This document shows positions 11,079 to 52,468 of a stretch of 64,000 nucleotides of DNA, piece after piece; position 1 is the stretch's first letter, and each line of letters begins with the position of its first letter. The translations under genes and the position numbers were made by a program. The stretch lies in IMG/VR virus record IMGVR_UViG_3300025141_000026; one strand, 5' to 3'. The notes beneath the pieces are model-generated. The model ran no database searches and was not told the DNA's origin. It saw only the letters and a program-made list of their open reading frames with translations. This DNA is from a virus.

Positions 11079-11681
11079 TTAGTCCTCCAAGACATAATTC
11101 AAAGCACGATTGATTCTATCTGCTTTCGTAAATATTTGTTTTTCAACGCCTTCCTGCAATCCCATATAAGCGCCGGGTGTTGATGGTTCAGAAACAAAGT
11201 CAAAACAAATGAGTTGAAAATCTTCTTGAACCGTTACGGTGCCATTTGTACCTTCAGATACAGAACCAAGACCTCTAGAGGAAATGCCTAGAGAGACACC
11301 GGAGTCAACCAAAGATCGAAGAACGTTGCCTGATGGGGTATCTAATACTTTGACCTTACCCATGACAGAGTTTCCATCCCACCACACATCTGTAACAAGG
11401 TGGGAAGCGTTCTTAAGATTGATTACGGAATCATCTGGGTGGTCTAATTCACCCAAAGCCCTTCGTTCTTTGACAAGCTTGTCATAGTTTTGCATCTCGC
11501 GACGTAATACCTTTTGAGGATATACTCTGCCATTTCCATTTTGAACTTCAGCCTCTTGTAACTTACCGGTAAGAATCATTCCCCCATTAGATACAAATTT
11601 CTTTTCTTCTTCCGTGAGGAGATCTTGGCAAACACCACCTTCACAAAGTTCATAATATTCTCTCAAAAGTTTCTTTGACAT
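11079..11681 (-). CDS. Prohead protease (gp21-like, S77)
   Basis: NGNGRVYP, ALGELDHP, NASH, GISSRGLGS, DFVSEPSTPGA motifs. Confidence 0.95.
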   Translation of the reverse strand: MSKKLLREYYELCEGGVCQDLLTEEEKKFVSNGGMILTGKLQEAEVQNGNGRVYPQKVLRREMQNYDKLVKERRALGELDHPDDSVINLKNASHLVTDVWWDGNSVMGKVKVLDTPSGNVLRSLVDSGVSLGISSRGLGSVSEGTNGTVTVQEDFQLICFDFVSEPSTPGAYMGLQEGVEKQIFTKADRINRALNYVLED

Positions 11682-25057: not shown

Positions 25058-25066
25058 GTAATTAGT
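25058..25066 (-). promoter_or_regulatory. Putative late promoter motif ACTAATTAC (lysis cassette and leader array)
   Basis: Copy of the recurrent motif. Confidence 0.5.
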
Positions 25067-28000
25067 TACTGAGATACAAAAGCGAATCCATCATTTTTCT
25101 CAATTTCAATAGTGGTATCAGCAATGTCCTTCAGGCTATCGACATGCGAGATCAACAAAACTATCTGATAGTAGTTCTTGACCATATCCACAATACGAAC
25201 AAAACCTTCCATGTTTTCCGCATCAAGGGCTGTTGCTGGTTCGTCAAGAATAAATAGGTTGGATTTAGGCAATGACGACACAGAAAGCAGCGCTAGTCTG
25301 ATTGCCATTGCAGCAATTGTTTTCTCAGCGCCAGATCCCATCTCAATAGGTCGTGGGTCATGCTTGGGGTGCTTGATAAAGATGTCAAGCTTGTTGCCAT
25401 CATTTTCAAAGAAGACCTCAAAGTCAACAACGTTAGCCAACACCTTTGAAATCTCATCATTGATGATTGGCAACCTCTTCTTAATAATATCATACGAGAT
25501 GCCATTAGAGTGCATGCAACGCATAAACAAATCATAAGCAGTATACTTGGTTCTTAGATCCTCCAAGTTTGCCTGTTGCTCAACCAAGTTGTTGAGCCGT
25601 TGTTCCAAAGAGCCATGCTGCTTATAAAGTTCTAAGATTTCGTTTCTGCATTCTTCGTATTCTTGTTTTTCTCTCTCCATTCTTTCTGTAGCCGCTCTTT
25701 TCTCTCCTGAAAGAATTTCCAGATTTTCAATAACTTCTTTGTTCTCTTCATATTCATTGATCTTTGCCTCCAGTTCTTTTATTTCAACTTCTAAATTTGT
25801 TTTTTTGGACTTGCTCTTCTCTATGTCAAGCTCAATACGAGCCATCTCATTTGAGAGATTGTTCTTCTTCTCGACAACCTTGTTGTATTTGGCTAAATGG
25901 CTGTCCACAATATCTGGCTGTAGGGTGCCGATATCCTTTTCTATTTTCTCCTTGTTGTTGTTGAGGAGGGTAATCTTCTTCTTGCTTTCTGGAAGAAGTT
26001 TTTTATGTGTATAAGCGTCTCGTATAAACCTACAATGAGAAAACTCAGAACCACAAGGGACTTCTGATAAGAGTGCGACTTTCTTTTCAATTCCTTCTTG
26101 CTCCCTTTCCTCTATACTTATTTCTGAAATGATATTATCGAGATCTTTTCCCTTGTCATTAATAAGTTCTTTTTTAGTTTCTAGTTCATCAATATCAAAG
26201 TTATCCAAAAACTGAATTATCTTTTGGTAATGGTCTAGCTTTTGTTTGTGCTGATCCTTCTTTTCGGATATGTCAATGTCAGCGATTTGTAGTTCGTTGG
26301 ACTTGATTTCTTTATCCTCCACGACCTTTACAATATTTATGATGCTTGCTGGCATTGACTCAATCTTTTTTGTCAAGGCAGTAATTTCATTGCGTATCTC
26401 TTCAATCTGGACTTTGTATGCGGCACAGGCTTTCTTTTGTTCTTCAGTTCTTCCAGCATTGTCGTTTAACAATAGTTGAGCAGCCTTGATGTCCTCATCA
26501 TAGTCTTTGCCCTCTAGTGTTTTCAGAGCACCTCGAAGATCTGATGCATCATCTTTTGCTAGCTTGAACTTCTTTTCAAAGATATCCAAATCCAAAAACT
26601 TTGCTAAGATTTCTTTACGTTTTGTAGATCCTTCATTGATGTATGAAAGAGATCCCATCTGAGATGACATAGAGGTCATTAGGAAGTCATCCATTGTCCC
26701 CAAGACCTTTTTGATATTTTTGTCGGTCTCATTTCTTGTGGTGCCATTTAGAACATCTATATCTTGTGTAATCAAGTTTTGTTTTGTAAACTCAGTCTTT
26801 GTTTTAGCTTCAAGCGTCTCTTCGCCCTTCAGCTTTTTGAGATACTTCTCTGACTCTCTATGGATGCTGTACGTGTCATCCCCAACAGATATCTCAACAT
26901 CTGCGGAACACATTTGCTTGTTCTGGTTGATTATGTTGAGATTCTTTCTCTCGTTTTTAGATGTGGAATTATACATCCCATAAAGCAGTCCGTCGATGAT
27001 GGAAGACTTACCAGAGAAGTTCTTGCCAAAAACTCCCACGACCCCATTCAACTTGGTGAAATCAATGGAGTTTCCTTCTCCATAATTGAACAGGTTATCC
27101 CAAGAAAACTTTCTTAGATTCCAATTTACGTTCCTTGTGATCTCCTCTTCTTCTTCAGCAACGGCATTGTATTTTCTATTAAGCTCATAAACCTTTTCTA
27201 AGGTCTGATCGTTAGCTTCATAGTCTTTGAGATACTCATCAATGAACTCTTCCTGAACAGCTATGTCACGAAGGTCCTCTTTTTTCAAGGTGTGGGTCAT
27301 ATGGTCAACGCTAGAGTTGCCACTCGCACGATTCAAGAATGTGATTGACTCTGGCTTGAACTTGGATTTAGCAACATCAATAGCCTTTCTCATCACATCG
27401 AGAGGAAGGTTATTGTTTGTAGCCAAACGAAGTCTTGAGCCGTTTGGAAATGATAGAGATCTAGGGATCTTGCCCTTCGGTGTCAAGTCGATTGTAATAA
27501 ACGGCTTAGGATTCAAAAGCACATGGTGCTTGCATGTATAGTTATCCTTGTCCTTTACATCCCATACCAGATATCCCTTGTCGTTCGTTTCTCCAAAGTT
27601 TTGCTGGACTGTTGATCCCGCATAGCGGATCTTACCTTTTGCATCGAGGGTTTGGTTGGTCTTGTGGATATCCCCAAGGAAAGCATAATCAAAATTATTA
27701 AAAATAGAAATGTCATAGTCGCCATAGTCCATTGTCCATCCGATGTCGGTTTGGCAACCGCTGATGGAACCGTGATAGAGAGCAATATTTACTCTATCAT
27801 AATTAGTTGGCTCGACCCAATTATCGGTATCAAACACAGACAAAACATTCAAAGCAAAATTGTCATTTATGACAGTTTCGCCTGACTCTTTAAGTAAATG
27901 TATGCTTGGGTGCGCCAGCGCTTCCACGATTGGGGTGATGGCATCTTGACGACTACTGTTCTTTAGATTGCCATCGTGGTTTCCCAAGATAATATAAGTT

Positions 28001-28215
28001 GGCGCAATGTCACCTAGACTGCGAAAGAAGTCGGTTGCCATCTCCACAAACTCTGGTGAGATCTGGGTCTTGGTGTGGGCAATGTCGCCACAATGGATAA
28101 TACAATCCACCTTTTGTTTTCTCAGCTTTTTGTACATCTGTTTGAATACTTCTTTATATTCAAAGTGATATTTCAGATTGCGGATATGGGTATCCGCTAT
28201 ATGAGCAAATCTCAT
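25066..28215 (-). CDS. Fused Mre11/SbcD nuclease - Rad50/SbcC ATPase (gp47-gp46 fusion)
   Basis: ADTH, GD, GNHD and GDIH metallophosphoesterase motifs; Walker A GKNFSGKS; long coiled coil; SGAEK signature; ILDEP; ISH. Confidence 0.92.
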   Translation of the reverse strand: MRFAHIADTHIRNLKYHFEYKEVFKQMYKKLRKQKVDCIIHCGDIAHTKTQISPEFVEMATDFFRSLGDIAPTYIILGNHDGNLKNSSRQDAITPIVEALAHPSIHLLKESGETVINDNFALNVLSVFDTDNWVEPTNYDRVNIALYHGSISGCQTDIGWTMDYGDYDISIFNNFDYAFLGDIHKTNQTLDAKGKIRYAGSTVQQNFGETNDKGYLVWDVKDKDNYTCKHHVLLNPKPFITIDLTPKGKIPRSLSFPNGSRLRLATNNNLPLDVMRKAIDVAKSKFKPESITFLNRASGNSSVDHMTHTLKKEDLRDIAVQEEFIDEYLKDYEANDQTLEKVYELNRKYNAVAEEEEEITRNVNWNLRKFSWDNLFNYGEGNSIDFTKLNGVVGVFGKNFSGKSSIIDGLLYGMYNSTSKNERKNLNIINQNKQMCSADVEISVGDDTYSIHRESEKYLKKLKGEETLEAKTKTEFTKQNLITQDIDVLNGTTRNETDKNIKKVLGTMDDFLMTSMSSQMGSLSYINEGSTKRKEILAKFLDLDIFEKKFKLAKDDASDLRGALKTLEGKDYDEDIKAAQLLLNDNAGRTEEQKKACAAYKVQIEEIRNEITALTKKIESMPASIINIVKVVEDKEIKSNELQIADIDISEKKDQHKQKLDHYQKIIQFLDNFDIDELETKKELINDKGKDLDNIISEISIEEREQEGIEKKVALLSEVPCGSEFSHCRFIRDAYTHKKLLPESKKKITLLNNNKEKIEKDIGTLQPDIVDSHLAKYNKVVEKKNNLSNEMARIELDIEKSKSKKTNLEVEIKELEAKINEYEENKEVIENLEILSGEKRAATERMEREKQEYEECRNEILELYKQHGSLEQRLNNLVEQQANLEDLRTKYTAYDLFMRCMHSNGISYDIIKKRLPIINDEISKVLANVVDFEVFFENDGNKLDIFIKHPKHDPRPIEMGSGAEKTIAAMAIRLALLSVSSLPKSNLFILDEPATALDAENMEGFVRIVDMVKNYYQIVLLISHVDSLKDIADTTIEIEKNDGFAFVSQ

Positions 28216-28223
28216 CGTTCTCC

Positions 28224-28610
28224 TTATAGTCTGATGTTCTTTTGAAGGTGGTCCCCTGCTTTACGCATGTCAGTCTCCAACTTGTGTAAATAAGCGGAAA
28301 TCAAAACAAAGCGAGCGACAAATTCAATTTCGTCCCCCGGCAACACATCACCAAATTTTTTATCTTCAGCGTTCTTGTGTTCGTAAATGTAGTTGAATAG
28401 ATATTGCTCTGTCCTTATGCCGACTTGCGCTCCCAGTTTATCATGGGGCGAGTGACAAGGTTTGCACTGTGCGACCCAGACGTTTGATTTAGTTCGCATA
28501 ATTGATGCGTCTTGTGCCTGAACAGTGATGGGTATAAACAGTAGTAGAATAAAACTACTTTTTAGTTTTCTTAGATTTCTTCTTTTTAGGAGGCTTTGCA
28601 GCATTGTCAT
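28224..28610 (-). CDS. Exported c-type cytochrome-like protein
   Basis: Signal-peptide-like FILLLFIPITVQA-Q, CKPCH heme-binding motif, C-terminal L..DEIEFVARFV helix. Exact start uncertain. Confidence 0.55.
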   Translation of the reverse strand: MTMLQSLLKRRNLRKLKSSFILLLFIPITVQAQDASIMRTKSNVWVAQCKPCHSPHDKLGAQVGIRTEQYLFNYIYEHKNAEDKKFGDVLPGDEIEFVARFVLISAYLHKLETDMRKAGDHLQKNIRL

Positions 28611-28812: not shown

Positions 28813-29373
28813 TTATTTTTCGTCTTTTGCGTCTAGGTATGCGGCGACAGCCATTTGTTGCCTCTTCTTTTTGCCTTTACCTTTGAATTGCGGTGCCTTA
28901 GATTTGTAGAAGTCATCCACATATGCACCTGCTCCGTCAGATGGCTTTAGTTTTTCTCCAAGCCCCAACTGAGCTTCTTCCTCTTCTGGTCACTGTTCTT
29001 GTAAATCGTCATCTTCGTTTACTGTTCTTGGGGAATCTAAAGTTTCACCGCTAGTAACATCTTTGACAACAGACATAAGAAACTCAACTGCTTTATCGTG
29101 CATGTCTTGCGGATCTTTTGAAACAGGTTCTCCAGTACCAGCATATGTTTGAGCTACATCTGTTGGCGTAGTCATTTCTTGGTATGCTGCACCAATAGCT
29201 GCTTCAAGATTTTGAATAGTCTCTACGTCAATACTTTCGTCCAATTGTTCGTCTTGTTGTTCTAACTCTTCTTGGACTTCTTCTCCAAACATCTCACCAG
29301 CTTCTTCGTTTGTAAGAACAACTTGAAGCTCTTCTCTAATGATTTGTTTAAGTCTTGCTTTTGTCATTTTCAT
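28813..29373 (-). CDS. Putative selenoprotein B (127 aa + UGA + 58 aa), probable internal head protein
   Basis: In-frame TGA at 28990-28992. The frame continues as PEEEEAQLGLGEKLKPSDGAGAYVDDFYKSKAPQFKGKGKKKRQQMAVAAYLDAKDEK to TAA at 28813; a SECIS-like hairpin follows the TGA. Confidence 0.6.
28960..28976 (-). promoter_or_regulatory. SECIS-like hairpin 2
   Basis: AAGCUC-AGUU-GGGGCUU starting 13 nt after the in-frame UGA; one bulged G. Confidence 0.55.
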
Positions 29374-29723
29374 TTATTTGATCTCTCCTTGTCGTCGTCA
29401 TCTTGCTTGGCATGCATATGCTCATTTACAAGAGTCTGCTCGATGTCTGATTCTGTCAAGTTTCTGATGATTGTATCACCAAATTTCATATCATAAACGC
29501 CGATATCGCCATTCTCATTGAGAGAGTGCCAAAGAACTTTTCCAACGGCGTTTTTTTCGTTGATTCCGTATCTTTCCTGTAAAGCTGAACTCAGCTTTCC
29601 TTCCTTCATTCATTTGTGTTTGAGGTCGTCAAGTTCCTTTTCAAGTTCTTTCTTTCTTTTCTTCTCAGCTTTTGTGAGTTCTTCTGCGATAATCTCTTTT
29701 AATCGTTGTTTTGTAATTTTCAT
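29370..29723 (-). CDS. Putative selenoprotein A (37 aa + UGA + 79 aa), probable internal head protein
   Basis: ATG at 29723 with RBS gives MKITKQRLKEIIAEELTKAEKKRKKELEKELDDLKHK, then TGA (29610-29612) in frame with MKEGKL...EHMH; a SECIS-like hairpin follows. Confidence 0.6.
29581..29598 (-). promoter_or_regulatory. SECIS-like hairpin 1
   Basis: Perfect 7-bp stem AAAGCUG-AGUU-CAGCUUU starting 11 nt after the UGA. Confidence 0.65.
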
Positions 29724-29732
29724 GTTATTCCC

Positions 29733-30671
29733 TCATAATGAATTTATAGCTTCGTAGAGTAAGTAGTTTTCATCATTCAAAAAAGAAGCCCTAGATTTTC
29801 TCTGCAAAAACTCCTCTTTTGACATCTCGCCAACATCGGTATATGGGAGTATGTCAATCTTGTATACTTTTATATCATAGGACAGCAATTTCTGTATGAT
29901 TCTCCTCGTCTTTTTCTCTGCGTCGGGGTCAAGTGCTAAGTATACATCTGATCCGTGATTTACTATGTCTTGAAATAGTTTTCCATCTTCTTTAATATAA
30001 GAGCCAAGAATCGGAATAGCATTGGCTCCTGCAACAACTGCATCAAATACACCCTCGACAAGAGTGATATCTTTTGTCCAATCAACCATTAGTTGGTTGA
30101 ACACAATATTCTTTGATACTGGTGGGTTCTTGTACTTTGGAAATGCATCGCCGTAAGCTCTGCCAACAAAATAATTTAGACAGCCTCTGTCATCAAACGA
30201 TGGGATCATAACTCGACCAGCATACTCGCCCTCTGAGCAATAGCCCATCTTCCAGTTGATAATGTCTTCTTCGGAAACATCACGGCTCTTCAAATATCTT
30301 TTGACTCGTTTGGTGTCATAGCAATCGCTTGCACTGACAAGAGACTTGAATTCTCTTGGCAAGCGTACTTTTATTGGTGGGTCAACTTCTTCCTGAGCAA
30401 ACAGGGAGTCAAAGTCTAGGATATTGGTGCGGTTGGTTAGTTTGTCCCACTCTGCCAATTCATCACGAGAGCCAAACTTTCTGACTAACCTGCGAATATC
30501 ATTGCCGCTCGTTTCACAGATCCAGCATTTGTATTTGTTTTTTGGTATGTTTACGGAGAGTTTCTTTTTGTGGTGATTGCAAAAGCCGCACTTAAAAATG
30601 TATTCTTCACCAGATGCATAATATCTACCCAAGGCATCACTGAGAATGTTTACTTTTTTCTGCTCTGACAA
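29733..30671 (-). CDS. DNA primase (Zn finger + TOPRIM)
   Basis: CGFC...CWIC Zn finger, YLKSR, RVMIP, KYKNP, LVEGVFD, LDPD motifs. Confidence 0.9.
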   Translation of the reverse strand: MSEQKKVNILSDALGRYYASGEEYIFKCGFCNHHKKKLSVNIPKNKYKCWICETSGNDIRRLVRKFGSRDELAEWDKLTNRTNILDFDSLFAQEEVDPPIKVRLPREFKSLVSASDCYDTKRVKRYLKSRDVSEEDIINWKMGYCSEGEYAGRVMIPSFDDRGCLNYFVGRAYGDAFPKYKNPPVSKNIVFNQLMVDWTKDITLVEGVFDAVVAGANAIPILGSYIKEDGKLFQDIVNHGSDVYLALDPDAEKKTRRIIQKLLSYDIKVYKIDILPYTDVGEMSKEEFLQRKSRASFLNDENYLLYEAINSL

Positions 30672-43000: not shown

Positions 43001-46000
43001 CTATAATATTGGTTCATTGCCAATATCATTTATTTTATTTTCAACTTCTTTGTCCGTTTGTCCCCTGTCTATATCCCCTGTATTGAGAAAGACTTTCTTC
43101 ACATCCGCTGGTGAAAAGGATTGGTCTTTGGCTAAATCGGGATCCTTTTTCTTAGGTGGATCATTTATTTCTGGTGCTGGATCGACAGTTATATCTGGTG
43201 GTGTTATGGGGACATTGCCTCCGATTTGTACGCCAGCATCGATCTTTGCTAATTCCACCAAACTAAAGAAGTCATATGGCCAATTATAGCTATAAGTTGT
43301 CTCCTCCAATGCCCCATCAACAAATTTGTCCATGCCCAATGTTTTACTTATAGCATTATTATAACTATATTTTGCTCTCTGTTTTACCTTGAAGATCATC
43401 CATCTGACCTCTTTTGTGATTGACTTTCCTAGCAATAACTCATTGTTTGTAAGAAAGTGAGTTATCTTTGAAGTTTGTTTTTCGGCTTTTACAGATATCT
43501 TTGGCATAACTCCCTGCCATATATCAGCCAAGTCCTGCTTATCTAAAGTGTGGCTAAACTCAAATATATACATTTGAAATGGGGTTAGATTTTCGTTATT
43601 GATAAAGTCAAGAGACGGCGGGAAGACGTACTTCTGCATTCTTTCTATTTGATCAATAATAGAGTGACCCGGAGTATAAACCGCAGGATCTAATGGATCT
43701 CTCTTGCCTAAGATGGCATCTACAACATGGCGACCTTTTGTTTTTGCAACGACTAAATCTTCAGCAGGAACTAATGGATAGAATATTTTTTTATCCCCAT
43801 TCACAGTAAAAGGTATCGCCACAACTGCTTCAAATATTTCTTTCTCTCCAGTTATCTCCCCAATACGTTTCGCCTCAGTATTGGGGAACAAAACTTGCCT
43901 CAATGAACCGATCTGTGCTTCTGTAGTTGGTGATAAACCCAAGGCAGAAAGAGGGTTGCCCCCATTGAATGGAGGGGCAAACGTAGGAAATGGATCTGTT
44001 AAGTCGTAATATATACCCTCTCCAGAAGAAGGAAATTCTCCGTATCCTCTCCACATCCCACGAGTATGAAGGTTTGCGTCTGCAAATGTTGTTCCAGTGT
44101 TCCCACTGAAATTCATGACAGGACACTCGAACTTGGGAGATATCACCCATTTTGATTCTTCCTGTCCAACTTGTGTGGTGGTTGGTCTTCCAAGAGCGTC
44201 AAATGCAAAGACGGGCTTTCCAACCACATTGAAAAGATTCATTGATGAATTTATTTGCATTTGGTATCTTGTTGCAAGAGAGAACTGATCTGTATTGGAG
44301 CCGCCTTCTCCCGGTCCATTTTTGGTGGGATCAAGAATTCCGAATGTCAAGTAATTGCTCTGATCTAATTCATAATTATTGAAAAATGTTGATCCACTAG
44401 TTGCTATATAGCCAACAATCTCACTAAGAGTAAACGAAGAATTCTTTCCGCCCACATCTAATGATTCGTTTGGTGCTAATTCTGTAAATTCATGTGGAGA
44501 AAATTTACATCTAACTGTAGACTTGCCATAAAAATATGGTGGAGTATAGGCAGCATTGGCTGGGTCACAACGAAAAGCATTGTTCATTCCAAAGGTCAGT
44601 GTCGATCTGTCAGCCATTCTTTGTAAGAGCGGTGGACCATAATGAATTCCTCTTGCTGATGCGGTGTTTCCTTGTGAACTAGTATTATTTAACCTGTGTG
44701 GTCCTTCATACATAACCATATCTGGTGTTTTATAAAGTTCGATATCCATATAATAATTGACACCAGATAGAAAACTAGCCATTGAGGTTGATTCTATGTT
44801 TGAAAACTTGCCCTCTTCCAAAAAGAAATTTGGCACTTCAGCTAAAAAGTTGTTCATTGCTAATGTGTAGTTGTCTTTGTTGTTGCCGTTCCAAACAGCA
44901 TAAGCTCCACTAATTCGTGGGGCACCAGTGTACAATCTGGCGTCTAGGTAGTTTATTCTTTCGGGCTTGTCACTAACTGTGGTCAATTTGTTTTTTGATG
45001 CTAAATAATTTTGAGGATATAATAACGCTTCAAATGGTATTCTAAATGAGCCAGTATCCGTTTGGACAACATCTCCGCCCCCGGCACCACCAAAGTTATC
45101 GATATTTGTAGATCCAGTAAATGTCATCCAGTCAACAGCAATACCTGATTTGACTGTGTTATACAGAATACCCGGATTGAAAAAAGGTTGCATAAACGCA
45201 CTCACTCTTTCAGTGTTTGGATTAGAAGAGAAAATTTCACTTCCTTCTAGAAACGGAGCAAATGATTGTGACATTAGGCTTCCTAGCTGAACTGTCCTAT
45301 TCATTGGATAAAAGCCGTTGTATGGCAATAATTTCTTAATTCCACTGCACTTTACGGTTATCTTGGTTTGCTTGGCGACCCCATCATGTTGTTCTCGAAT
45401 AACGTCAAAGTGTTTGATAAAATCACTGTGTGTGTAGATATCAAAGAAATCGGCATCAAATGGGTCGGTTTCAGATTCCGCAGATTGGGATAAGTGCCCA
45501 CCCTCAAGTGTCAAGTATTTATTATTTTTAGACGTAGCACCAAAGAAAGTACCCTTATCTAGATAGTAGTCCATGTGTTGAGATATTCTAAATTCTGGGA
45601 GGACCGTGTGGTCTTGCCCAAACAACCTAATATCAGATGCATATTCTTCATAAGAATCGAACCATGGCTTCTTACCTGACAGTCTTCCTGTGTCCCAATT
45701 TGGAATAAACTCTGAGTAGAATTCTCCATCAGACCCTCCTTCTGCCGCAGATGACGACATGAAAGCGTGATACTCGTAAGTGAAGGAGGCTGTTGGGGAC
45801 AATAATGCGGTTCTATCTATTTGGTATTGCAACATTGATGTGCTAAAGCTATCTACAGAAAGTGCACCATGATTCGTCCCTGTGAGTTGTGAGTAATCAA
45901 TTGTTGCCCCTGTCATTCTATCTCCAACATCAAGGGGGTGAACACTAAAAGCAGTGGCGAATTCCGGTCTGGGCGTACCCACTACAGGGGGTGATAGTGT

Positions 46001-49000
46001 GATAAGCGTTTCAGTATAACCAAGTGCGTTTCTTGCTACGCCATCTGTTCTTTGTCTATTTCCTAGTGCGTCTCTCCAGAACGTTCTTTGATCTCCAAGA
46101 ATTGAAGTATAGTCAGTTGAGGTTATGTCCTCATTGTATGAAGTTCTTCCTCTTGTTTTTGCCAAATAGGTGTGTTGCTCTTTTGGGTATATTGTTTCTT
46201 TATAGATTAAGTGCCTAAACCCTTTTATTGGATTTGACGCTTGTGGGACTGTACCCTTTACTGTGAACTCTAATAAGTTATCATATACCTGCTGTCCCGG
46301 TGGCTCAATTCTATTCGCAGTATTCATGTCATTCATTAGGTCTGGGTTTGCAAAATAATCAAAATTATTAGCATATGAATGGTCAATTGAAAGTGGTGCG
46401 ATTTCTTTGTTATCGTTTATTACATTTAGAGCGTGTCGCATTGGCTTGTATTTTGAAGACAGCGGAGGCTCAATATAATTTTGTATTGTCAGTTCTGCGC
46501 CTAACATGTCATGTGTTTTGCCTTTTAGACCTTGATAGCTGTTGTCAGTCAAATCTCTATAATTCAACTTTGGAAAGATTGTTGAATTAAAAAGTGTTGT
46601 TGCATGACCCTTGTTTTTGCTTATAAAAGGCTTAGGGTTTCTAACTGACAATGAATATGTATTTGTGTCTTTTAAGTGTCTTACAATTGGATGATACATG
46701 TTTCTAATTTGCTTAAAGACAGGGAAACCGACTCCGCCACCAGCGTTTAGAAGACCTGCGTTCAGTAAAACACTTTCACCTATTCCGTTGGGGCCCATTT
46801 GTCCATTGTCCAAGAGACCATTTTGTATCGTGTTGTCAGAAAACTGTGTTGAATCTGCAACTACAATAGTGTTTAGACCCGCAAAATCTACCGGTAAAAA
46901 CCTGACCCCGGTGCCAATTGCTTGCAATAATGTTATCCCGTAGCCATAAGTCACTCCGGAACTACCAACCGCGCCAAAATTACTGGCGCTGGCAAAGTTT
47001 ACAGCAGATTCAAATCCACCAGCAGAAGAGGACACTTTACCGCTGTATGGAAAGTAGCCAAGACCAAATCCATTTGATGGGTCCTGAGATAACACAGACG
47101 CTGTGATCCAAGAATACTGAAAATCACTTCTTGGAATCATGTGGGTAATAAACCCATTATCAAACGTGGAGCCTGTTGCATAATCTTGATTTACAGTTCC
47201 ATCCGGGTTGAGATATGTTGCACCGTTGTTCATCTCAATTCTACGCAGTCTGTTCCTATATGTTTTATGGAAAGCGGGAGTGGTGGATGCCTGATTATCA
47301 TACCCGCCAAATGCTGTCCGTCTTGAAAGCAGTGACGTTAAGCCAAGCGAAGAGGTTGACCAAGTGTTTGTGCTTATCTCGACACCAAGGGTCTGGACTT
47401 GTTTTTTATATGCCCCAATCCCTCTAACAGATAAGTTTCTAAATGGCATTGCGTTGTATGCAGACATCTCTTCTGCAAACGGGTCTAGATATCCACGAGA
47501 CATTGCCTCGTAACTTCCCGGCGCAGAGAATCTTTCAACAAAGACTGTATCTGTTGTTTTTCTTTCCGCCAGTTGATAATCATAAAATAGATTTCTTACA
47601 AAAGATATCTCAGGTGTTGGCAGCAGTCCGGGCAGCAGTGTTTGACTTGTATATCCAAAACCAACCCCTTGCTGCTCTACAAAATATTTATTATTTGCTG
47701 TTCTACCAGAGGTTTGTAAAACATCGTATTGGTGAGAATAATTTCCAACTGGTCCGTGAAAAAGAGCACCATCCAAACGAGTGTCAACAGTCGCTGTTGT
47801 TTGCAAAATATTCTTGATTACAACGGGTCTTTTTGCTATAAAATCTCTATAGTAAGGAGCATTTATACCACCCAAAGCACCGACAGCGCCGTTATAATGA
47901 TTTCTGAACTGCATTTGGGAGTGCACTGTTGGAGGCAAGACTATTTTCCAAGCTTCTGGTCTATGATGCATGGAGTTTGTTGTAATATCTCTTCCGTCAT
48001 TTATTCTGACGTGTCTATGTGGGTTTCCACCTTCCCACCTTTCTGTAAAGGTCCCTTGCATTGGCTCTTCCGCAAGAGTTCCATATCCATCATGATGGTG
48101 GTTTACAACAACAACCTTTTGGTCTTTTGGATCCCCACTGCCTCCGGGTTCCCAACTGTTTAAATAAACATCAGTAGTAGAACCTGTGGTGTAAAGATTA
48201 AAAGGTACAATTGTGTTTATTTTTTGCACATCTAAAATGGCACCCGCTGTAACACTATATTTGTAACCGAATGATGATTTTACTTTATTTTTGTTTCTAA
48301 GTTCATCATTGTCAGCACAGTGGCGGTCGTCAGTGTGCCTGTCGTCTACATATAATTGACTTCCAGTGACCAATACTACATTTTGATTTCCGAATTGTAG
48401 AAACCCTTTCCAATAATCAACCTTTTTATTTGCATCAAAGTTTACACCACCCTTAATTTGCTTGGTGAATGAAACGCCTTCTCTGTATGGTTTTGACAAT
48501 TTACGAAGAACATAGGTTGACCCTTCGTATCTTTTTAGATATGATCCACTATTGTCTGTTGTCGCTCTATCTAAAATTGTTTGTCTACCTGTGTTCACAG
48601 AGGCAACACTGGAGCTTAGGGCAGCGATTGTTTTTTCTGCCCTTTGATTAAACCATAAGCAGTTATCTTTTTGCTTTTTGTCATCAGACACATCTGTTGG
48701 GGCATGCCCAAATTTCCAGTTATATGTAAGCTCATTGATACCAAGCGCTGGGACTTCTGGGTCTTCCTGCTTGGTTTCTAATGTTGGGAATTTATTTCTG
48801 TATGCATTTCTTTCTAGAACATGACTTTCGACAACTGTTCTTAAGTCATCTGCATAGTTTGCTGATACTGGGAAAAGCTGTTCCAAGAATTTTGTAATCG
48901 CTGCATCAATCCACTTATAGAAATCAACATATTTATCTAGATCAGGAGAGTTGCCTATACTTTCAAAAAATAGGCTTTTCAACTTATCCATGTCTTTATA

Positions 49001-52000
49001 CTGACCTCGGTACCTATTTACGGGCTCGCCAATCAAATTATTGAAATCAGCAATTGTGGCAAACATTCGTAGCATCTCATCAGATATGGTTTGATACATG
49101 CTTTTTTCTACCGCATAAAAATAGTCTATTGGTCTACTGTCCCTAGTAAATTTAAGATCATCTTGGTTGAGAATCTCGATCATATCAGAACTATTTATTA
49201 CTTCTGGTGCATCTAGTTTTGCTGAATTTGCATAAATGTGATCGACCACTTTTTCGTTATTTGGCTCGAAAAAATCACCACGACCTGTAAATTGATTTTG
49301 AACAATATTTCTCAGAGCGCCATATCGATCATCTGTAATCCCCTCGGCAAAATTTTGTGTTGTAGAGCCAGACGAAATATCTTCGACAACAAAGCGAGCA
49401 TCATAAGTGGTTGGTACCCCGCTGATGCCAGCGTCAGATCCAGTGACATTTGTAAAATCCCATTCAAAAATTAGAAGCTCTGATCTTGGGATATCAAAAG
49501 GTTTTACACTATTTTGAAAAACAAAAGCGCTTTTATATGGATGAAGAACTCCTTTACTGTCTGCATTTTTTGCATGAACTCCAAGTTCTTCATCCGTCAA
49601 GTAATCCATCCAAGCTCTAGTTGTGGAGATTCTTACGTCCGACTCTTGCAGCAAGCCTCCTGAGAAGTTTGTTCTGTGTGCTCCCAAGTACATACGCTTG
49701 GATCCGGACATGAAATTGTCTCCAATACTAGCGTTGACTGTTGTCGAGAGACTAAATTCATCCACAATGGTATCTAAATCAGCGTGTGCGCCGTAAAAAG
49801 ATAATTCATATGTCAGATCAGTATCGGCAGCAATTGAAGAATCAAGAGTGCCAGAATTTGTTCCTGTCAAGGCGTTTGCCCATGGATATTTTGTGGGTTT
49901 TATTCTAACCGCAAAATTCCACTTTTCATTATCATAAACATAATCGAATACACTACTTGTTAGATTTATGCCCATTGCAGAACTTGTCAATTGAAAATAA
50001 GCATGGCGTGAATCTCTTTCTGGTCTTACCGCATATACTTTAAATTCGGAAACATCCGGGTCATTCCAAGTTGTGTTTGCTTGACCCGAAGATCCGCCTT
50101 CGGCTTCTACTGCTGTGTGCATACCGTACAGCGATGATGACAGTTGTTCAAATGGTTGATAAAAAGGATCTCCGGGGTCTCCCTTATATGGGAAGTAAAC
50201 TTCAGATTGGAAAGTCATCCCAAAACCACCAGAAACCAATGCTAGTGCAGAAGGTATGTATGAATATGCGTTTGTATTATTATTTACACTAGATGTATAA
50301 TGGTAAATTGTAGCTGCTTGTCTATCAACATCCATAAAATCAACATATGTCTTTTTTAACGCAGAGGATCTAAAATTGTTTTTTAGTTCAAAATCTACAT
50401 TATTCCCATATAAATTCAAACGAATTAATTCTTCATCCACACCAAAGCATCTAACTAAATTTCTAAAAGATTTTTCTGTTCCTTTTGACTTTAGAATAAA
50501 ATTCAAATTGTTATAGATGTTTTGATAAATTTGATTTTTTATGTTATAAAGCTTGTCTTTATATTCTCTATCTTCGTCCCTTGAGCTAAGTTGTTCTAAA
50601 GCTTCCGCATCAGTAAAAATCTCCGGAACATCAATCCCGAAAGATTGAAGTGCATTCTTTATGAAAGGTTTTGGTTTACCACTAAAGCTGGAGGAATATG
50701 CGGGATATGCATTGGAGCCGGTTACTAATATGCTACCCTCGTCAGCATAATTTTTAGCTCTCAATTCCATAAACTTTGTGTAATTTGCATCTTTTACGTG
50801 AGGCAAAAAGTCTAATTGAAGTTGTAAGGTATCAAAATAGCTAGCCATTATTTGTATTATTTTAACTAAATTTGAAGCTCCAACCTCTTTGTCATCTTCT
50901 GCGATCCAATTTGGTAATGTTGTATGAATGGCAGAAGAGTTTCTTGCATCGTAAACGCTTCCCTCTTCAGACTTGTCTTTCTTAAGATTGAATACTTGGG
51001 GGTGAAACGAGTAAATGATTGGGTCTCTAAATTCTGTAAGAGATGCAGATGACTCTACCATAGCAGAACCAGTAAGTCGTGGACCAGTCTGAATGTCTGT
51101 TTTATCATAGTTCACGATTGTACCATTTGAAATTCTGCCTGAATAATCTAAAACTGTGGCATCATATGAGGCGTTTGTAGTGATGCCCTCGTTGAACTTG
51201 AAATATACACCTAAATCCGTGTTTGAATTATCAGTATTCGCACCTCCGTAAACTTGTGTAAACCAATTTCTACCAACCTCTTTTGCGGTTCTGGATTTTT
51301 TCCAAAATCTAAATTCATCTATCGCACCATTAAGTTGATTAAACCCATTAAAATCAGTTCTTGCAGTTGGTGCAAGAGCAATGGCTTTTACGGTGTTGTC
51401 AGGGAAATGTTTGTAAGCTCCAATATTAGCATTTAGTGCCCCTGTAACTTCCCCAATCGAAGAGCCGGTAAGAATTGAGTCTATGGGTTCTCCATTCACA
51501 TATGTTTTGATTCTTAAGGAGTTACCCTCATTTTTCACACTAAATGCAAGGTGATTCCAAGACCCTGTTGTGAACTGCGGAACGGATGCAAAGGGGAGCA
51601 CTGGGACTTTTTCGGCTCCGGAAGTTCCAGACATGTATGTTAAATGGAAATTAGCGCCATCAACCAATGTGAATTGTGCGCCTCCGGTGCCTCCGCCGGT
51701 ATTGAGATAATAATATCTTCTATCTATTAAGAATCTACCATAGCTACCACTTCGTATTGCAGTTGTAGTGCCCCCATCATCATTCCATAAATCAAACAAC
51801 ACACCATGCGCTACCGACGTGGGCTTGACCCACAACTCTACCGTGTTGCCCTCTGCTCCGTCAATGGAAAGATTTGATGCTCTTTTCCTTTCTGCATCAT
51901 AAATGTTTGCTGATGTCTGAGTATATGATGTTTTTGAAGAGGCTTTTGAATAAGTTTGTGATTTTGGTTGTTGGTCAAGAGTGTCCGCCGCTCCTGCTTT

Positions 52001-52468
52001 ATTAGGACCACCCTTCACACTAATGTACAACGGTCCAGTGTGGATTTGAGCGAAGAATTCCACACCAGTACCATCATCATTTTGTTTATACGCGGTGGGG
52101 CTGGTGCTTTGATCTTGTACATAGTACCCGTTTGTTCTTGGGTACAATTCATCGAACACATAGTTGTCAAAATATGATGCAGAATTGTGCCATTCTGTTT
52201 TTTCTTTGTGTGAACCGTCGTATGGATAAGTTCGATGAACGGCTTGAATAGCGTTTTCGTAATATTTTTCAGCAGACCCATAGCGTACAAAAGTTTCTGG
52301 TTTTGTGAAATCTACTTCTGGTACGAATCTGTCTTTTTCTTCTTGATAGGCTTCAATATAGCCAAAAGACTCAGCGTCTTGACTTGATGTGAGATCATTT
52401 ATATTTTTTGCAGATAAGACTTTTCCTGAGCTATCGTGCTTGTTGAATAAATCTTTTATTTTTGGCAT
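43001..52468 (-). CDS. Giant (3155 aa) baseplate/tail protein with LamG-like domains
   Basis: TVELWVK, WNHLAFS, GAIDEFRFW and YFKFNEG LamG motifs; KSKGTEKS..LVRCFG resembles a gp7-type wedge motif. Confidence 0.7.
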   Translation of the reverse strand: MPKIKDLFNKHDSSGKVLSAKNINDLTSSQDAESFGYIEAYQEEKDRFVPEVDFTKPETFVRYGSAEKYYENAIQAVHRTYPYDGSHKEKTEWHNSASYFDNYVFDELYPRTNGYYVQDQSTSPTAYKQNDDGTGVEFFAQIHTGPLYISVKGGPNKAGAADTLDQQPKSQTYSKASSKTSYTQTSANIYDAERKRASNLSIDGAEGNTVELWVKPTSVAHGVLFDLWNDDGGTTTAIRSGSYGRFLIDRRYYYLNTGGGTGGAQFTLVDGANFHLTYMSGTSGAEKVPVLPFASVPQFTTGSWNHLAFSVKNEGNSLRIKTYVNGEPIDSILTGSSIGEVTGALNANIGAYKHFPDNTVKAIALAPTARTDFNGFNQLNGAIDEFRFWKKSRTAKEVGRNWFTQVYGGANTDNSNTDLGVYFKFNEGITTNASYDATVLDYSGRISNGTIVNYDKTDIQTGPRLTGSAMVESSASLTEFRDPIIYSFHPQVFNLKKDKSEEGSVYDARNSSAIHTTLPNWIAEDDKEVGASNLVKIIQIMASYFDTLQLQLDFLPHVKDANYTKFMELRAKNYADEGSILVTGSNAYPAYSSSFSGKPKPFIKNALQSFGIDVPEIFTDAEALEQLSSRDEDREYKDKLYNIKNQIYQNIYNNLNFILKSKGTEKSFRNLVRCFGVDEELIRLNLYGNNVDFELKNNFRSSALKKTYVDFMDVDRQAATIYHYTSSVNNNTNAYSYIPSALALVSGGFGMTFQSEVYFPYKGDPGDPFYQPFEQLSSSLYGMHTAVEAEGGSSGQANTTWNDPDVSEFKVYAVRPERDSRHAYFQLTSSAMGINLTSSVFDYVYDNEKWNFAVRIKPTKYPWANALTGTNSGTLDSSIAADTDLTYELSFYGAHADLDTIVDEFSLSTTVNASIGDNFMSGSKRMYLGAHRTNFSGGLLQESDVRISTTRAWMDYLTDEELGVHAKNADSKGVLHPYKSAFVFQNSVKPFDIPRSELLIFEWDFTNVTGSDAGISGVPTTYDARFVVEDISSGSTTQNFAEGITDDRYGALRNIVQNQFTGRGDFFEPNNEKVVDHIYANSAKLDAPEVINSSDMIEILNQDDLKFTRDSRPIDYFYAVEKSMYQTISDEMLRMFATIADFNNLIGEPVNRYRGQYKDMDKLKSLFFESIGNSPDLDKYVDFYKWIDAAITKFLEQLFPVSANYADDLRTVVESHVLERNAYRNKFPTLETKQEDPEVPALGINELTYNWKFGHAPTDVSDDKKQKDNCLWFNQRAEKTIAALSSSVASVNTGRQTILDRATTDNSGSYLKRYEGSTYVLRKLSKPYREGVSFTKQIKGGVNFDANKKVDYWKGFLQFGNQNVVLVTGSQLYVDDRHTDDRHCADNDELRNKNKVKSSFGYKYSVTAGAILDVQKINTIVPFNLYTTGSTTDVYLNSWEPGGSGDPKDQKVVVVNHHHDGYGTLAEEPMQGTFTERWEGGNPHRHVRINDGRDITTNSMHHRPEAWKIVLPPTVHSQMQFRNHYNGAVGALGGINAPYYRDFIAKRPVVIKNILQTTATVDTRLDGALFHGPVGNYSHQYDVLQTSGRTANNKYFVEQQGVGFGYTSQTLLPGLLPTPEISFVRNLFYDYQLAERKTTDTVFVERFSAPGSYEAMSRGYLDPFAEEMSAYNAMPFRNLSVRGIGAYKKQVQTLGVEISTNTWSTSSLGLTSLLSRRTAFGGYDNQASTTPAFHKTYRNRLRRIEMNNGATYLNPDGTVNQDYATGSTFDNGFITHMIPRSDFQYSWITASVLSQDPSNGFGLGYFPYSGKVSSSAGGFESAVNFASASNFGAVGSSGVTYGYGITLLQAIGTGVRFLPVDFAGLNTIVVADSTQFSDNTIQNGLLDNGQMGPNGIGESVLLNAGLLNAGGGVGFPVFKQIRNMYHPIVRHLKDTNTYSLSVRNPKPFISKNKGHATTLFNSTIFPKLNYRDLTDNSYQGLKGKTHDMLGAELTIQNYIEPPLSSKYKPMRHALNVINDNKEIAPLSIDHSYANNFDYFANPDLMNDMNTANRIEPPGQQVYDNLLEFTVKGTVPQASNPIKGFRHLIYKETIYPKEQHTYLAKTRGRTSYNEDITSTDYTSILGDQRTFWRDALGNRQRTDGVARNALGYTETLITLSPPVVGTPRPEFATAFSVHPLDVGDRMTGATIDYSQLTGTNHGALSVDSFSTSMLQYQIDRTALLSPTASFTYEYHAFMSSSAAEGGSDGEFYSEFIPNWDTGRLSGKKPWFDSYEEYASDIRLFGQDHTVLPEFRISQHMDYYLDKGTFFGATSKNNKYLTLEGGHLSQSAESETDPFDADFFDIYTHSDFIKHFDVIREQHDGVAKQTKITVKCSGIKKLLPYNGFYPMNRTVQLGSLMSQSFAPFLEGSEIFSSNPNTERVSAFMQPFFNPGILYNTVKSGIAVDWMTFTGSTNIDNFGGAGGGDVVQTDTGSFRIPFEALLYPQNYLASKNKLTTVSDKPERINYLDARLYTGAPRISGAYAVWNGNNKDNYTLAMNNFLAEVPNFFLEEGKFSNIESTSMASFLSGVNYYMDIELYKTPDMVMYEGPHRLNNTSSQGNTASARGIHYGPPLLQRMADRSTLTFGMNNAFRCDPANAAYTPPYFYGKSTVRCKFSPHEFTELAPNESLDVGGKNSSFTLSEIVGYIATSGSTFFNNYELDQSNYLTFGILDPTKNGPGEGGSNTDQFSLATRYQMQINSSMNLFNVVGKPVFAFDALGRPTTTQVGQEESKWVISPKFECPVMNFSGNTGTTFADANLHTRGMWRGYGEFPSSGEGIYYDLTDPFPTFAPPFNGGNPLSALGLSPTTEAQIGSLRQVLFPNTEAKRIGEITGEKEIFEAVVAIPFTVNGDKKIFYPLVPAEDLVVAKTKGRHVVDAILGKRDPLDPAVYTPGHSIIDQIERMQKYVFPPSLDFINNENLTPFQMYIFEFSHTLDKQDLADIWQGVMPKISVKAEKQTSKITHFLTNNELLLGKSITKEVRWMIFKVKQRAKYSYNNAISKTLGMDKFVDGALEETTYSYNWPYDFFSLVELAKIDAGVQIGGNVPITPPDITVDPAPEINDPPKKKDPDLAKDQSFSPADVKKVFLNTGDIDRGQTDKEVENKINDIGNEPIL

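What the first reader, a model, noticed from the sequence alone, without database searches (positions are those of the whole stretch)
29370..29723. Selenoprotein A: UGA sits where a His-x-Cys would be expected
Seen: read-through joins a 37-aa leader ORF (absent from the ORF track) to a domain with H-K-[UGA] ... WHSLNENGDIGVYDMKF ... EHMH. The downstream ATG has no clear RBS of its own. From memory and unverified, T4-like phage proteins carrying an 'ENG.I..YDV.F...H.H' domain begin with H-x-C, which would make this a Cys/Sec pair. Inference: a His/Sec metal-binding or redox site.
Basis: partly seen in the sequence, partly recalled or inferred. Interest (0 to 1): 0.8.

Follow-up and report, generated by a model that had tools for sequence, protein, structure and literature searches.

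The report
Phage gene encoding a selenocysteine protein
A small gene of this uncultured marine phage has an internal UGA "stop" that all 116 close relatives keep, at a position where distant relatives have cysteine, and a co-varying RNA hairpin follows it; this is the signature of selenocysteine, which I found reported for no virus of bacteria.

Summary
On the minus strand, a 37-codon ORF (29723..29613), a TGA (29612..29610) and a 79-codon ORF (29609..29373) are in one frame. The second ATG has no ribosome-binding site.

This is one 117-codon gene whose UGA most likely encodes selenocysteine (U38).
- All 116 loci of the close subfamily keep TGA at that codon. Eleven have no ATG/GTG after it.
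- Nine more distant loci in three other subfamilies also carry TGA there.
- Five distant homologues have Cys at that column; four were checked at the DNA level (TGT/TGC).
- Database proteins with "W" there are table-4 gene-calling artefacts.
- A 7-bp hairpin with an AGUU loop starts 11 nt after the UGA. It shows compensatory changes and suppressed synonymous variation.
- The other UGA subfamilies have different hairpins at the same place. The Cys forms have none.

His36, His66 and His104 are invariant and His102 nearly so, around a predicted SH3-like barrel whose first strand contains U38.

Still open: the host is unknown, and related phage contigs carry no tRNA-Sec, SelB or SelD. The biochemical function is also unknown.

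The papers I could search describe no phage selenoprotein. This scan has noted similar candidates on other DNA; I did not test those notes.

The parts
29370..29723 (-). Whole selenoprotein gene: 117 sense codons including UGA-38, plus its real stop TGA at 29372..29370. That stop overlaps the next gene's ATG (ATGA).
   Evidence: The same one-frame arrangement is found in 116 related loci. Cys-form homologues are continuous proteins.
29730..29734 (-). Shine-Dalgarno motif GAGGG serving the ATG at 29723. It overlaps the primase stop codon.
   Evidence: The internal ATG at 29609 has no such motif.
29613..29723 (-). N-terminal 37 codons. They comprise the leader motif MK-I-T-K-x-x-L-K-x-I-I-x-E-E-L, a Lys/Glu-rich helix (model residues 5-35) and the invariant His36.
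   Evidence: The leader motif is also present in the Cys-form homologues. His36 is invariant in 90 distinct sequences.
29610..29612 (-). In-frame UGA, predicted selenocysteine codon (U38).
   Evidence: TGA in 116/116 loci of the close subfamily and in nine loci of three other subfamilies. TGT/TGC in Cys forms L049, L051, L067, L158 and L159.
29599..29609 (-). 11-nt spacer between the UGA and the hairpin (AUGAAGGAAGG; codons M39 K40 E41 and part of G42).
   Evidence: Spacer length is constant in 65 distinct sequences. It is 12-13 nt in the other Sec subfamilies.
29581..29598 (-). SECIS-like hairpin AAAGCUG-AGUU-CAGCUUU. The 5' arm is 29598..29592, the loop 29591..29588 and the 3' arm 29587..29581. 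It lies within codons G42-L48.
   Evidence: Covariation: 95.4% of cells paired against 89.5% in shuffles (0/500), and 21 double-change cells against 3.9 (0/500). Slid controls pair only 16-56%. The loop is AGUU in 64/65 sequences. Synonymous variation is suppressed at K43, L44, S45 and S46.
29421..29615 (-). Predicted small SH3-like beta-barrel, residues 37-101. Its first strand (37-44) contains U38. W65-H66 lie in strand 2, and H102-x-H104 directly follow strand 5.
   Evidence: AlphaFold2 model m9ee6ec6d5db8, mean pLDDT 76.7. VIA-align matches to SH3/Tudor/KOW-type barrels all start at residue 36-40 and reach only Z 5.7 or less.

Best explanation
The stretch 29723..29370 (minus strand) is one gene for a 117-residue phage selenoprotein.

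Mechanism (inferred):
- Ribosomes start at the leader ATG, which has the only ribosome-binding site.
- At UGA-38 the host's SelB, carrying Sec-tRNA(Sec), binds the hairpin that starts 11 nt downstream and inserts selenocysteine.
- Translation then continues through the 79-codon domain.

What is shown: the gene is a single unit, there is a Sec/Cys pair among homologues, and the hairpin is under RNA-level selection.

What is inferred about function: the product is an N-terminal helix followed by a small SH3-like barrel. U38 and His36 sit at the start of strand 1. His66 sits at the end of strand 2, and His102/His104 directly after strand 5. In an antiparallel barrel these all lie at the same end. 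They therefore plausibly form one His-rich selenolate site, either metal-binding or redox-active.

Also inferred: when Sec insertion fails, termination releases the 37-residue leader. The adjacent AUG might then allow re-initiation of a Sec-less 79-residue product.
For: 1. The UGA is kept in all 116 loci of the close subfamily, down to 49% protein identity. The upstream ORF varies from about 30 to about 260 codons but is always in frame and always ends H-x-UGA.
2. Eleven loci have CTG (10) or ACA (1) after the UGA. The conserved domain then has no ATG/GTG start of its own.
3. There are true Cys homologues at the aligned column: five clusters at the 50% level, four of them checked as TGT/TGC in DNA. 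A Cys form also exists in the cultured cyanophage S-ShM2.
4. The hairpin covaries. AU changes to GC or CG in 14 sequences, GC to UA in 5 and CG to UA in 2. Some changes cost paired amino-acid substitutions (K to R together with A to D).
5. Lys, Leu and Ser codons in the stem are 94-100% one codon. The same residues elsewhere in the gene use 2-6 codons.
6. Three other UGA-bearing subfamilies have different 7-8 bp hairpins 12-13 nt after the UGA, with a G in the first or second loop position. Four Cys forms have only 3-5 bp chance stems there.
7. The geometry fits the bacterial SECIS rule. The hairpin starts 11 nt after the UGA, as in the minimal E. coli fdhF element, and has GU in a tetraloop. 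The rule itself is from my own knowledge. PMC2398784 (read) mentions the conserved apical-loop G.
8. TGA is an ordinary stop here: 12 of 51 genes use it, including this gene's own end. No suppressor tRNA was found.
9. The model places U38 inside the first strand of the domain.
10. The neighbouring gene has a second in-frame UGA with a similar hairpin, AAGCUC-AGUUG-GGGCUU.
Against: - The host is unknown, so the required SelA/SelB/SelC/SelD cannot be checked.
- Five related phage contigs, one of them rated complete at 186 kb, carry no tRNA-Sec, SelB or SelD.
- A preprint (read) reports that Pelagibacter, a very abundant marine host, lacks selC.
- No Rfam SECIS model matches. These models cover bacterial elements poorly.
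- The protein has no other Cys, so there is no resolving partner as in most redox selenoproteins.
- UGA forms far outnumber Cys forms.
- In 115 of 116 close loci the codon after the UGA is NTG, so termination followed by re-initiation remains possible as a parallel route.
- There is no direct evidence of selenium in the protein.
Confidence: 0.8

Rival explanations
1. Two separate genes coupled by termination and re-initiation. A 37-residue peptide ends at the UGA, and the same ribosome restarts at the adjacent AUG to make a stand-alone 79-residue protein. The hairpin would only tune this coupling.
For: UGA-AUG abut directly and the AUG has no ribosome-binding site. ATG follows the UGA in 101 of 116 loci and GTG in 4. 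Stop-ATG junctions occur elsewhere in the window, as TAA-ATG at 11079, 10421 and 4689.
Against: - Eleven loci have CTG or ACA after the UGA with an intact domain.
- The other subfamilies have GCR or CTG there.
- The Cys-form homologues are continuous proteins carrying the same leader motif.
- His two residues before the UGA is invariant.
- The predicted first barrel strand starts before the Met.
- The hairpin is present only when the codon is UGA.
Confidence: 0.07
2. Programmed UGA read-through without selenium. The hairpin stimulates near-cognate decoding (Trp or Cys). Alternatively, SelB delivers a Cys-charged tRNA with a UCA anticodon, as proposed for some deltaproteobacteria in PMC5389517.
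For: An in-frame UGA plus a downstream hairpin could also promote read-through. No Sec machinery was found in the phage. The neighbouring gene's UGA has no Cys homologue among the hits I looked at.
Against: - The aligned residue in sense-codon homologues is always Cys, never Trp.
- The base after the UGA varies (A, C, G), so no leaky context is conserved.
- Hairpin position and loop fit the SelB-type element.
- The Cys/UGA alternation together with a SECIS-like hairpin is the standard criterion for selenoprotein prediction (PMC2398784, PMC12013277).
Confidence: 0.1
3. A changed genetic code (TGA read as Trp or Gly) in the phage or its host, or a pseudogene or assembly error.
For: Several public gene calls translate this codon as W.
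Against: - Those calls are table-4 artefacts on short contigs.
- TGA ends 12 of 51 genes in the window, including this one.
- ORFs of up to 3155 codons are open under table 11.
- No tRNA with a UCA anticodon was found.
- The same TGA in 116 independent assemblies excludes an error.
Confidence: 0.01

Closest known systems
Bacterial selenoprotein genes with an in-ORF SECIS read by SelB (prototype E. coli fdhF)
   Same: An in-frame UGA is followed by a hairpin starting 11 nt downstream, with G-U in a small apical loop. Homologues have Cys at the same column. The hairpin lies inside the coding sequence and constrains codon choice.
   Different: The gene is encoded by a virus of bacteria, not by a cell. 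The protein family is new (H-x-U, SH3-like barrel, no second Cys). The loop is AGUU rather than GGUC. The SelB that would read it is unknown.
Poxvirus glutathione peroxidase selenoproteins (molluscum contagiosum virus, fowlpox virus; reviewed in PMC8310308)
   Same: A virus carries a selenoprotein gene and depends on the host's Sec machinery.
   Different: Those are captured cellular GPx genes decoded by the eukaryotic SECIS/SBP2 system. This is a phage-only family: no relative was found in 185,579 prokaryote genomes. It carries a bacterial-type element.
T4-like cyanophage hypothetical protein ADO97794 of Synechococcus phage S-ShM2 (T4-like gene cluster 1138), and the metagenomic Cys forms P0153, P0145, P0135, P0162 and P0181
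   Same: They share the same C-terminal domain: H-x-C, then E-x-G-x-[IV]-x-x-YD-[VM]-x-F, then H-x-H. The S-ShM2 protein matches the family profile at 94% probability, E 1.4e-7. The metagenomic forms also share the MK-x-T-K leader motif.
   Different: They have Cys (TGT/TGC) and no hairpin. They are usually longer multi-module proteins of 142-408 residues. Their function is unknown too.
Q-beta A1 read-through protein (UGA read by tRNA-Trp)
   Same: A phage gene product is extended past a UGA, and a shorter product arises when termination wins.
   Different: There the inserted residue is irrelevant and no Cys homologues exist. Here the UGA column is a conserved Cys/Sec site next to invariant His, and the downstream hairpin covaries.

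Membership tests
Bacterial-type selenoprotein gene (UGA + SECIS) | In-frame UGA with conserved coding sequence on both sides | tested here: met
   All 116 close loci have the TGA in frame. His36 is invariant upstream and the domain is conserved downstream.
Bacterial-type selenoprotein gene (UGA + SECIS) | Homologues with Cys aligned to the UGA | tested here: met
   Five Cys-form clusters align at the column. Four were confirmed as TGT/TGC. The cyanophage S-ShM2 protein has H-D-C.
Bacterial-type selenoprotein gene (UGA + SECIS) | Stem-loop immediately downstream of the UGA, with the apical loop about 16-37 nt from the UGA and a G in the first two loop positions (bSECIS model; from my own knowledge) | tested here: met
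   7-bp stem, 11-nt spacer, loop AGUU starting 18 nt after the UGA. The other subfamilies have 7-8 bp stems, 12-13 nt spacers and loops GUC, GUU, GGG or GGA.
Bacterial-type selenoprotein gene (UGA + SECIS) | The hairpin is selected as RNA (covariation) and is absent from Cys forms | tested here: met
   Covariation is shown, synonymous suppression, and Cys forms have only 3-5 bp chance stems.
Bacterial-type selenoprotein gene (UGA + SECIS) | Sec machinery (selA, selB, selC, selD) available where the gene is expressed | not testable with these tools
   The host is unknown and no whole genome is held. The machinery is absent from five related phage contigs.
Bacterial-type selenoprotein gene (UGA + SECIS) | Selenium actually incorporated at the UGA | not testable with these tools
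   This needs 75Se labelling or mass spectrometry.
Rfam SECIS families | Match to a curated covariance model | tested here: inconclusive
   No match at the gathering threshold or at E up to 10. A preprint (read) notes that bacterial SECIS elements are poorly represented in these models.
Programmed UGA read-through (Q-beta A1 type) | The inserted residue is unimportant or Trp, and a leaky stop context is conserved | tested here: not met
   Sense-codon homologues have Cys, never Trp. The base after the UGA varies between A, C and G.
Alternative genetic code (table 4 or 25) | TGA is not used as a stop codon | tested here: not met
   TGA ends 12 of 51 genes, including this one.
SH3-like small beta-barrel fold | Five-strand barrel superposable on solved SH3/Tudor/KOW domains | tested here: inconclusive
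   Best VIA-align match is Z 5.7, rmsd 2.2 over 50 residues, and many matches tie at Z 4-5. Foldseek found nothing at E 0.001 or better.

The most novel reading that the evidence does not exclude
A widespread family of selenoproteins is encoded by marine phages themselves: more than 450 clusters at 90% identity and at least four UGA-bearing subfamilies. Selenocysteine sits in a His-rich site on an SH3-like barrel, and this phage has a second SECIS-bearing gene next door. If so, the phage depends on its host's SelB/tRNA-Sec, so its host range is tied to Sec-decoding bacteria. The UGA-AUG junction could also act as a selenium-dependent switch between a leader-tagged full-length selenoprotein and a leaderless 79-residue product.
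Probability: 0.75. Interest if true: 0.85.

Novelty: new variant of a known kind. Interest (0 to 1): 0.8.

Why it matters
- **Viral selenoproteins.** The only ones in the review I read (PMC8310308) are two poxvirus GPx genes captured from animals. Two reviews of prokaryotic selenoproteomes (PMC9312934, PMC13188914) never mention phages. A phage-only selenoprotein family with its own bacterial-type SECIS would show that phages use the 21st amino acid.
- **Host marker.** The gene would give a sequence-level marker that the unknown host decodes Sec.
- **New site.** It adds a Sec-His site with no partner Cys to selenoprotein chemistry.
- **Annotation error.** Public gene calls for this family are either cut at Met39 or carry a false Trp from table-4 calling.

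Tried and rejected
- **Pfam and PHROGs:** no significant family for either ORF.
- **Phage record collection:** blastn found nothing. tblastn gave only E about 1-4 hits. One of these later proved to be a real Cys-form relative by profile comparison.
- **First impression withdrawn:** I first thought the column was Trp, implying read-through with Trp. The W forms turned out to be TGA translated with table 4.
- **Whole genome:** none is held for the window.
- **tRNA-Sec model:** its hits in related phages are tRNA-Leu(UAA).
- **Sec machinery in related phages:** no SelB or SelD.
- **Prokaryote genomes:** no relative among the GTDB representative genomes.
- **Locus scans with alignment A1:** it was too diverse to seed them.
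- **Fold searches:** only generic small barrels.
- **His/Sec clustering:** model coordinates are not exposed, so I could not measure distances.
- **Hairpin scan of the 186-kb relative:** my strict filter missed even the known gene, because its stem has one mismatch there. It says nothing about further candidates.
- **GOS selenoprotein paper:** its supplements do not contain this family's motifs.
- **Host identity:** could not be inferred. The nearest cultured phages are only 36-47% identical in primase and capsid protein: Flavobacterium phage immuto and Microcystis phage Mel-JY01.

Full report
**What is there**

All genes in the window lie on the minus strand. The window belongs to a large, uncultured marine myovirus.
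- PHROG matches cover tail sheath, gp23-type capsid protein, portal, terminase, primase and SbcCD.
- The nearest cultured phages are only 36-47% identical in primase and capsid protein.

Directly after the primase stop, an ATG at 29723 with a GAGGG ribosome-binding site opens 37 codons ending L-K-H-K. A TGA follows at 29612..29610. An ATG at 29609 then opens 79 codons that end at TGA 29372..29370, and that stop overlaps the next gene's ATG. The two ORFs are in one frame, and the internal ATG has no ribosome-binding site.

**Is TGA a normal stop here?**

Yes.
- Of 51 likely genes, 12 end in TGA, 25 in TAA and 14 in TAG.
- ORFs of up to 3155 codons are open under table 11.
- The window has no tRNA and no Rfam match.

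A changed genetic code is therefore excluded.

**Homologues: a false lead and its correction**

The 79-residue part has 455 database relatives. Most are 77-80 residues long and start at the same Met. A few longer ones are fused to a leader and show W at the UGA column. I briefly read that as Trp read-through.

Looking up their DNA showed that each translates only 'with_TGA=W'. They are table-4 gene calls on short contigs, and their DNA has TGA.

**How well the UGA is conserved**

I collected loci from IMG/VR (32) and from metagenomes (80), then located the column by tblastn.
- All 116 loci of the close subfamily have TGA, down to 49% protein identity.
- The ORF upstream of the UGA ranges from about 30 to about 260 codons and is very divergent. 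It is always in frame and always ends H-x-TGA.
- The next codon is ATG in 101 loci, GTG in 4, CTG in 10 and ACA in 1.
- So in 11 loci the conserved domain has no ATG/GTG start of its own. It must be reached by decoding the UGA.

**The Cys/UGA pair**

I ran a full phmmer search of 1.84 billion cluster representatives with the read-through product. It found distant relatives whose match crosses the junction.
- Five have H-[SA]-C-A-[TN]-H at the column: P0153, P0145, P0135, P0162 and P0181. They translate under table 11, and four were checked as TGT or TGC.
- Six others have 'W'. The three I looked up (P0149, P0151, P0152) again have TGA in their DNA; P0122, P0173 and P0176 were not looked up. 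They define further UGA subfamilies: G-H-T-U-L-T-H, A-H-N-U-A-T-H and P-H-S-U-L-N-H.

In the joint alignment the UGA of the window, the other UGAs and the Cys residues share one column. His36, Gly61, His66, Tyr77 and His104 are invariant, and His102 nearly so.

The Cys forms also carry the MK-x-T-K-x-x-L-x-x-I-I-x-E-E leader motif, so the '37-residue ORF' is part of the protein. The cultured cyanophage S-ShM2 has a Cys-form domain at the end of a 408-residue protein. It matches the family profile at 94% probability, E 1.4e-7.

**The hairpin**

Eleven nucleotides after the UGA lies AAAGCUG-AGUU-CAGCUUU, within codons G42-L48. I analysed 65 distinct sequences of the close subfamily.
- The loop is AGUU in 64.
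- 95.4% of pair cells are standard pairs, against 89.5% in shuffles (0 of 500 shuffles reach it).
- 21 cells have changes on both sides, against 3.9 expected (0 of 500).
- Sliding the partner columns drops pairing to 16-56%.
- Compensatory changes include AU to GC or CG (14 sequences), GC to UA (5) and CG to UA (2). Some are paid for with paired amino-acid changes (Lys to Arg together with Ala to Asp).

Synonymous variation is suppressed exactly in the stem.
- Lys43 is AAG in 100% of sequences, Leu44 CTG in 97%, Ser45 AGT in 100% and Ser46 TCA in 94%.
- Conserved Leu, Ser and Lys elsewhere in the gene use 2-6 codons.

The other UGA subfamilies have different 7-8 bp hairpins 12-13 nt after the UGA: AAGUUGAA-GUC-UUCAACUU, AGUGGAA-GUU-UUCCGCU and AAGCGGAA-GGG-UUCCGCUU. 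Four Cys forms have only 3-5 bp chance stems at other positions.

The position and the G/U-containing small loop fit the bacterial SECIS. The minimal fdhF element also starts 11 nt after the UGA and has GU in its tetraloop (my own knowledge). PMC2398784 mentions the conserved apical-loop guanosine.

A Sec/Cys pair together with a SECIS-like structure immediately downstream is the criterion the field uses (PMC2398784, PMC12013277).

**Specificity within the window**

Only two of the 1357 TGA trinucleotides on the coding strand combine three features: a hairpin of 6 bp or more starting 9-16 nt downstream, at least 30 open codons before, and at least 40 after. They are this site and the TGA at 28992..28990 of the next gene.

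The second hairpin, AAGCUC-AGUUG-GGGCUU, resembles the first in its stem and loop start. I record that gene under noticed in passing.

**The protein**

AlphaFold2, run with 53 family sequences, gives mean pLDDT 76.7.
- A helix spans residues 5-35.
- Strands span 37-44, 60-68, 74-81, 84-89 and 94-101.
- U38 lies in the first strand. Structural matches to SH3/Tudor/KOW-type barrels all begin at residues 36-40, but they are generic, with Z 5.7 or less.

From the strand order I infer that His36/U38, His66 and His102/His104 lie at the same end of the barrel. I could not measure distances.

The protein has no other Cys. A His-rich selenolate site, metal-binding or redox-active, is the most likely role. 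The chemistry is unknown.

**What is missing**
- No whole genome is held for the window.
- Five related phage contigs, one rated complete at 186 kb, have no tRNA-Sec, no tRNA with a UCA anticodon, no SelB and no SelD. The tRNA-Sec model hits there are tRNA-Leu(UAA).
- The family has no relative in 185,579 prokaryote genomes.
- Decoding must therefore use the machinery of an unknown host. A preprint reports that Pelagibacter lacks selC while Actinomarina has the full machinery. This shows that the requirement is a real constraint on the host.
- Strong Shine-Dalgarno motifs in the phage suggest a host that uses them.

**Rivals**
- *Termination and re-initiation as the sole mechanism.* The loci without a start codon, the continuous Cys forms and the link between UGA and hairpin all argue against it. 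It may still operate as a side route in this window.
- *Selenium-independent read-through.* It cannot be excluded without experiments, but it does not explain why sense-codon relatives always have Cys.
- *Code change or sequencing error.* Both are excluded.

**Literature and earlier notes**
- Searches of the held library found no phage selenoprotein.
- The review PMC8310308 lists only two poxvirus GPx genes.
- Two prokaryotic selenoproteome reviews do not mention phages.
- The supplements of the GOS selenoprotein paper lack this family's motifs.
- This scan's notebook holds several follow-up reports of phage selenoprotein candidates on other DNA. None shares this domain at the word level. I did not test them and do not count them as evidence.

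**Verdict**

- One recoded gene rather than two separate genes: about 0.9.
- Selenocysteine as the decoded residue: about 0.8.
- The function of the site is open.

Noticed in passing
window 28813-29373 (minus); UGA at 28992..28990; hairpin about 28976..28960: The next gene (127 codons, with the same MK-x-T-K leader) also ends at a TGA that is followed in frame by 58 open codons. These encode a module...EKLKPSDGAGAYVDDF...AAYLDAK, that is the ordinary C-terminus of many related proteins. The hairpin AAGCUC-AGUUG-GGGCUU starts 13 nt after this UGA. The arrangement is conserved in L004/L014. Database forms with W at the column (P0199, P0201) are probably table-4 calls, though I did not look up their DNA. 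The other homologues I read join the module without the U segment, so I saw no Cys form.
   Followed up: partly
window 29723 and 29373 gene starts; neighbours in L002-L033: Many unrelated small proteins of this phage group share an N-terminal motif, MK-[IL]-T-K-x-x-L-K-x-I-I-x-E-E-L. Both candidate Sec genes and the Cys-form relatives carry it. It may be a shared targeting or assembly tag; I did not test this.
   Followed up: partly
public protein collections (P0068, P0028, P0079, P0083, P0122, P0149, P0151, P0152): Short metagenomic contigs carrying this gene were gene-called with table 4, which gives a false Trp at the Sec codon. Most other entries are truncated at Met39. I confirmed seven of these W entries at the DNA level; P0122 was not looked up. 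Any survey of this family from protein databases alone would miss the UGA.
   Followed up: yes
L003, L007, L008, L102 (relatives): In some relatives the ORF upstream of the UGA is about 145-260 codons, not 37. The same Sec-containing domain therefore ends much larger multi-module proteins.
   Followed up: no
window 25066-28215 (minus): A single 1049-residue ORF matches both the SbcD-like nuclease (residues 1-385) and the SbcC-like ATPase (residues 181-1047). It looks like a fused Mre11-Rad50-type protein.
   Followed up: no
window 28224-28610 (minus): A 128-residue ORF has a signal-like N-terminus and a weak match to the cbb3-type cytochrome c domain (Pfam E 0.034, below the cut-off).
   Followed up: no
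window 43001-52468 and 56275-63984 (minus): Two giant ORFs of 3155 and at least 2569 codons lie in the structural region. I did not examine them.
   Followed up: no
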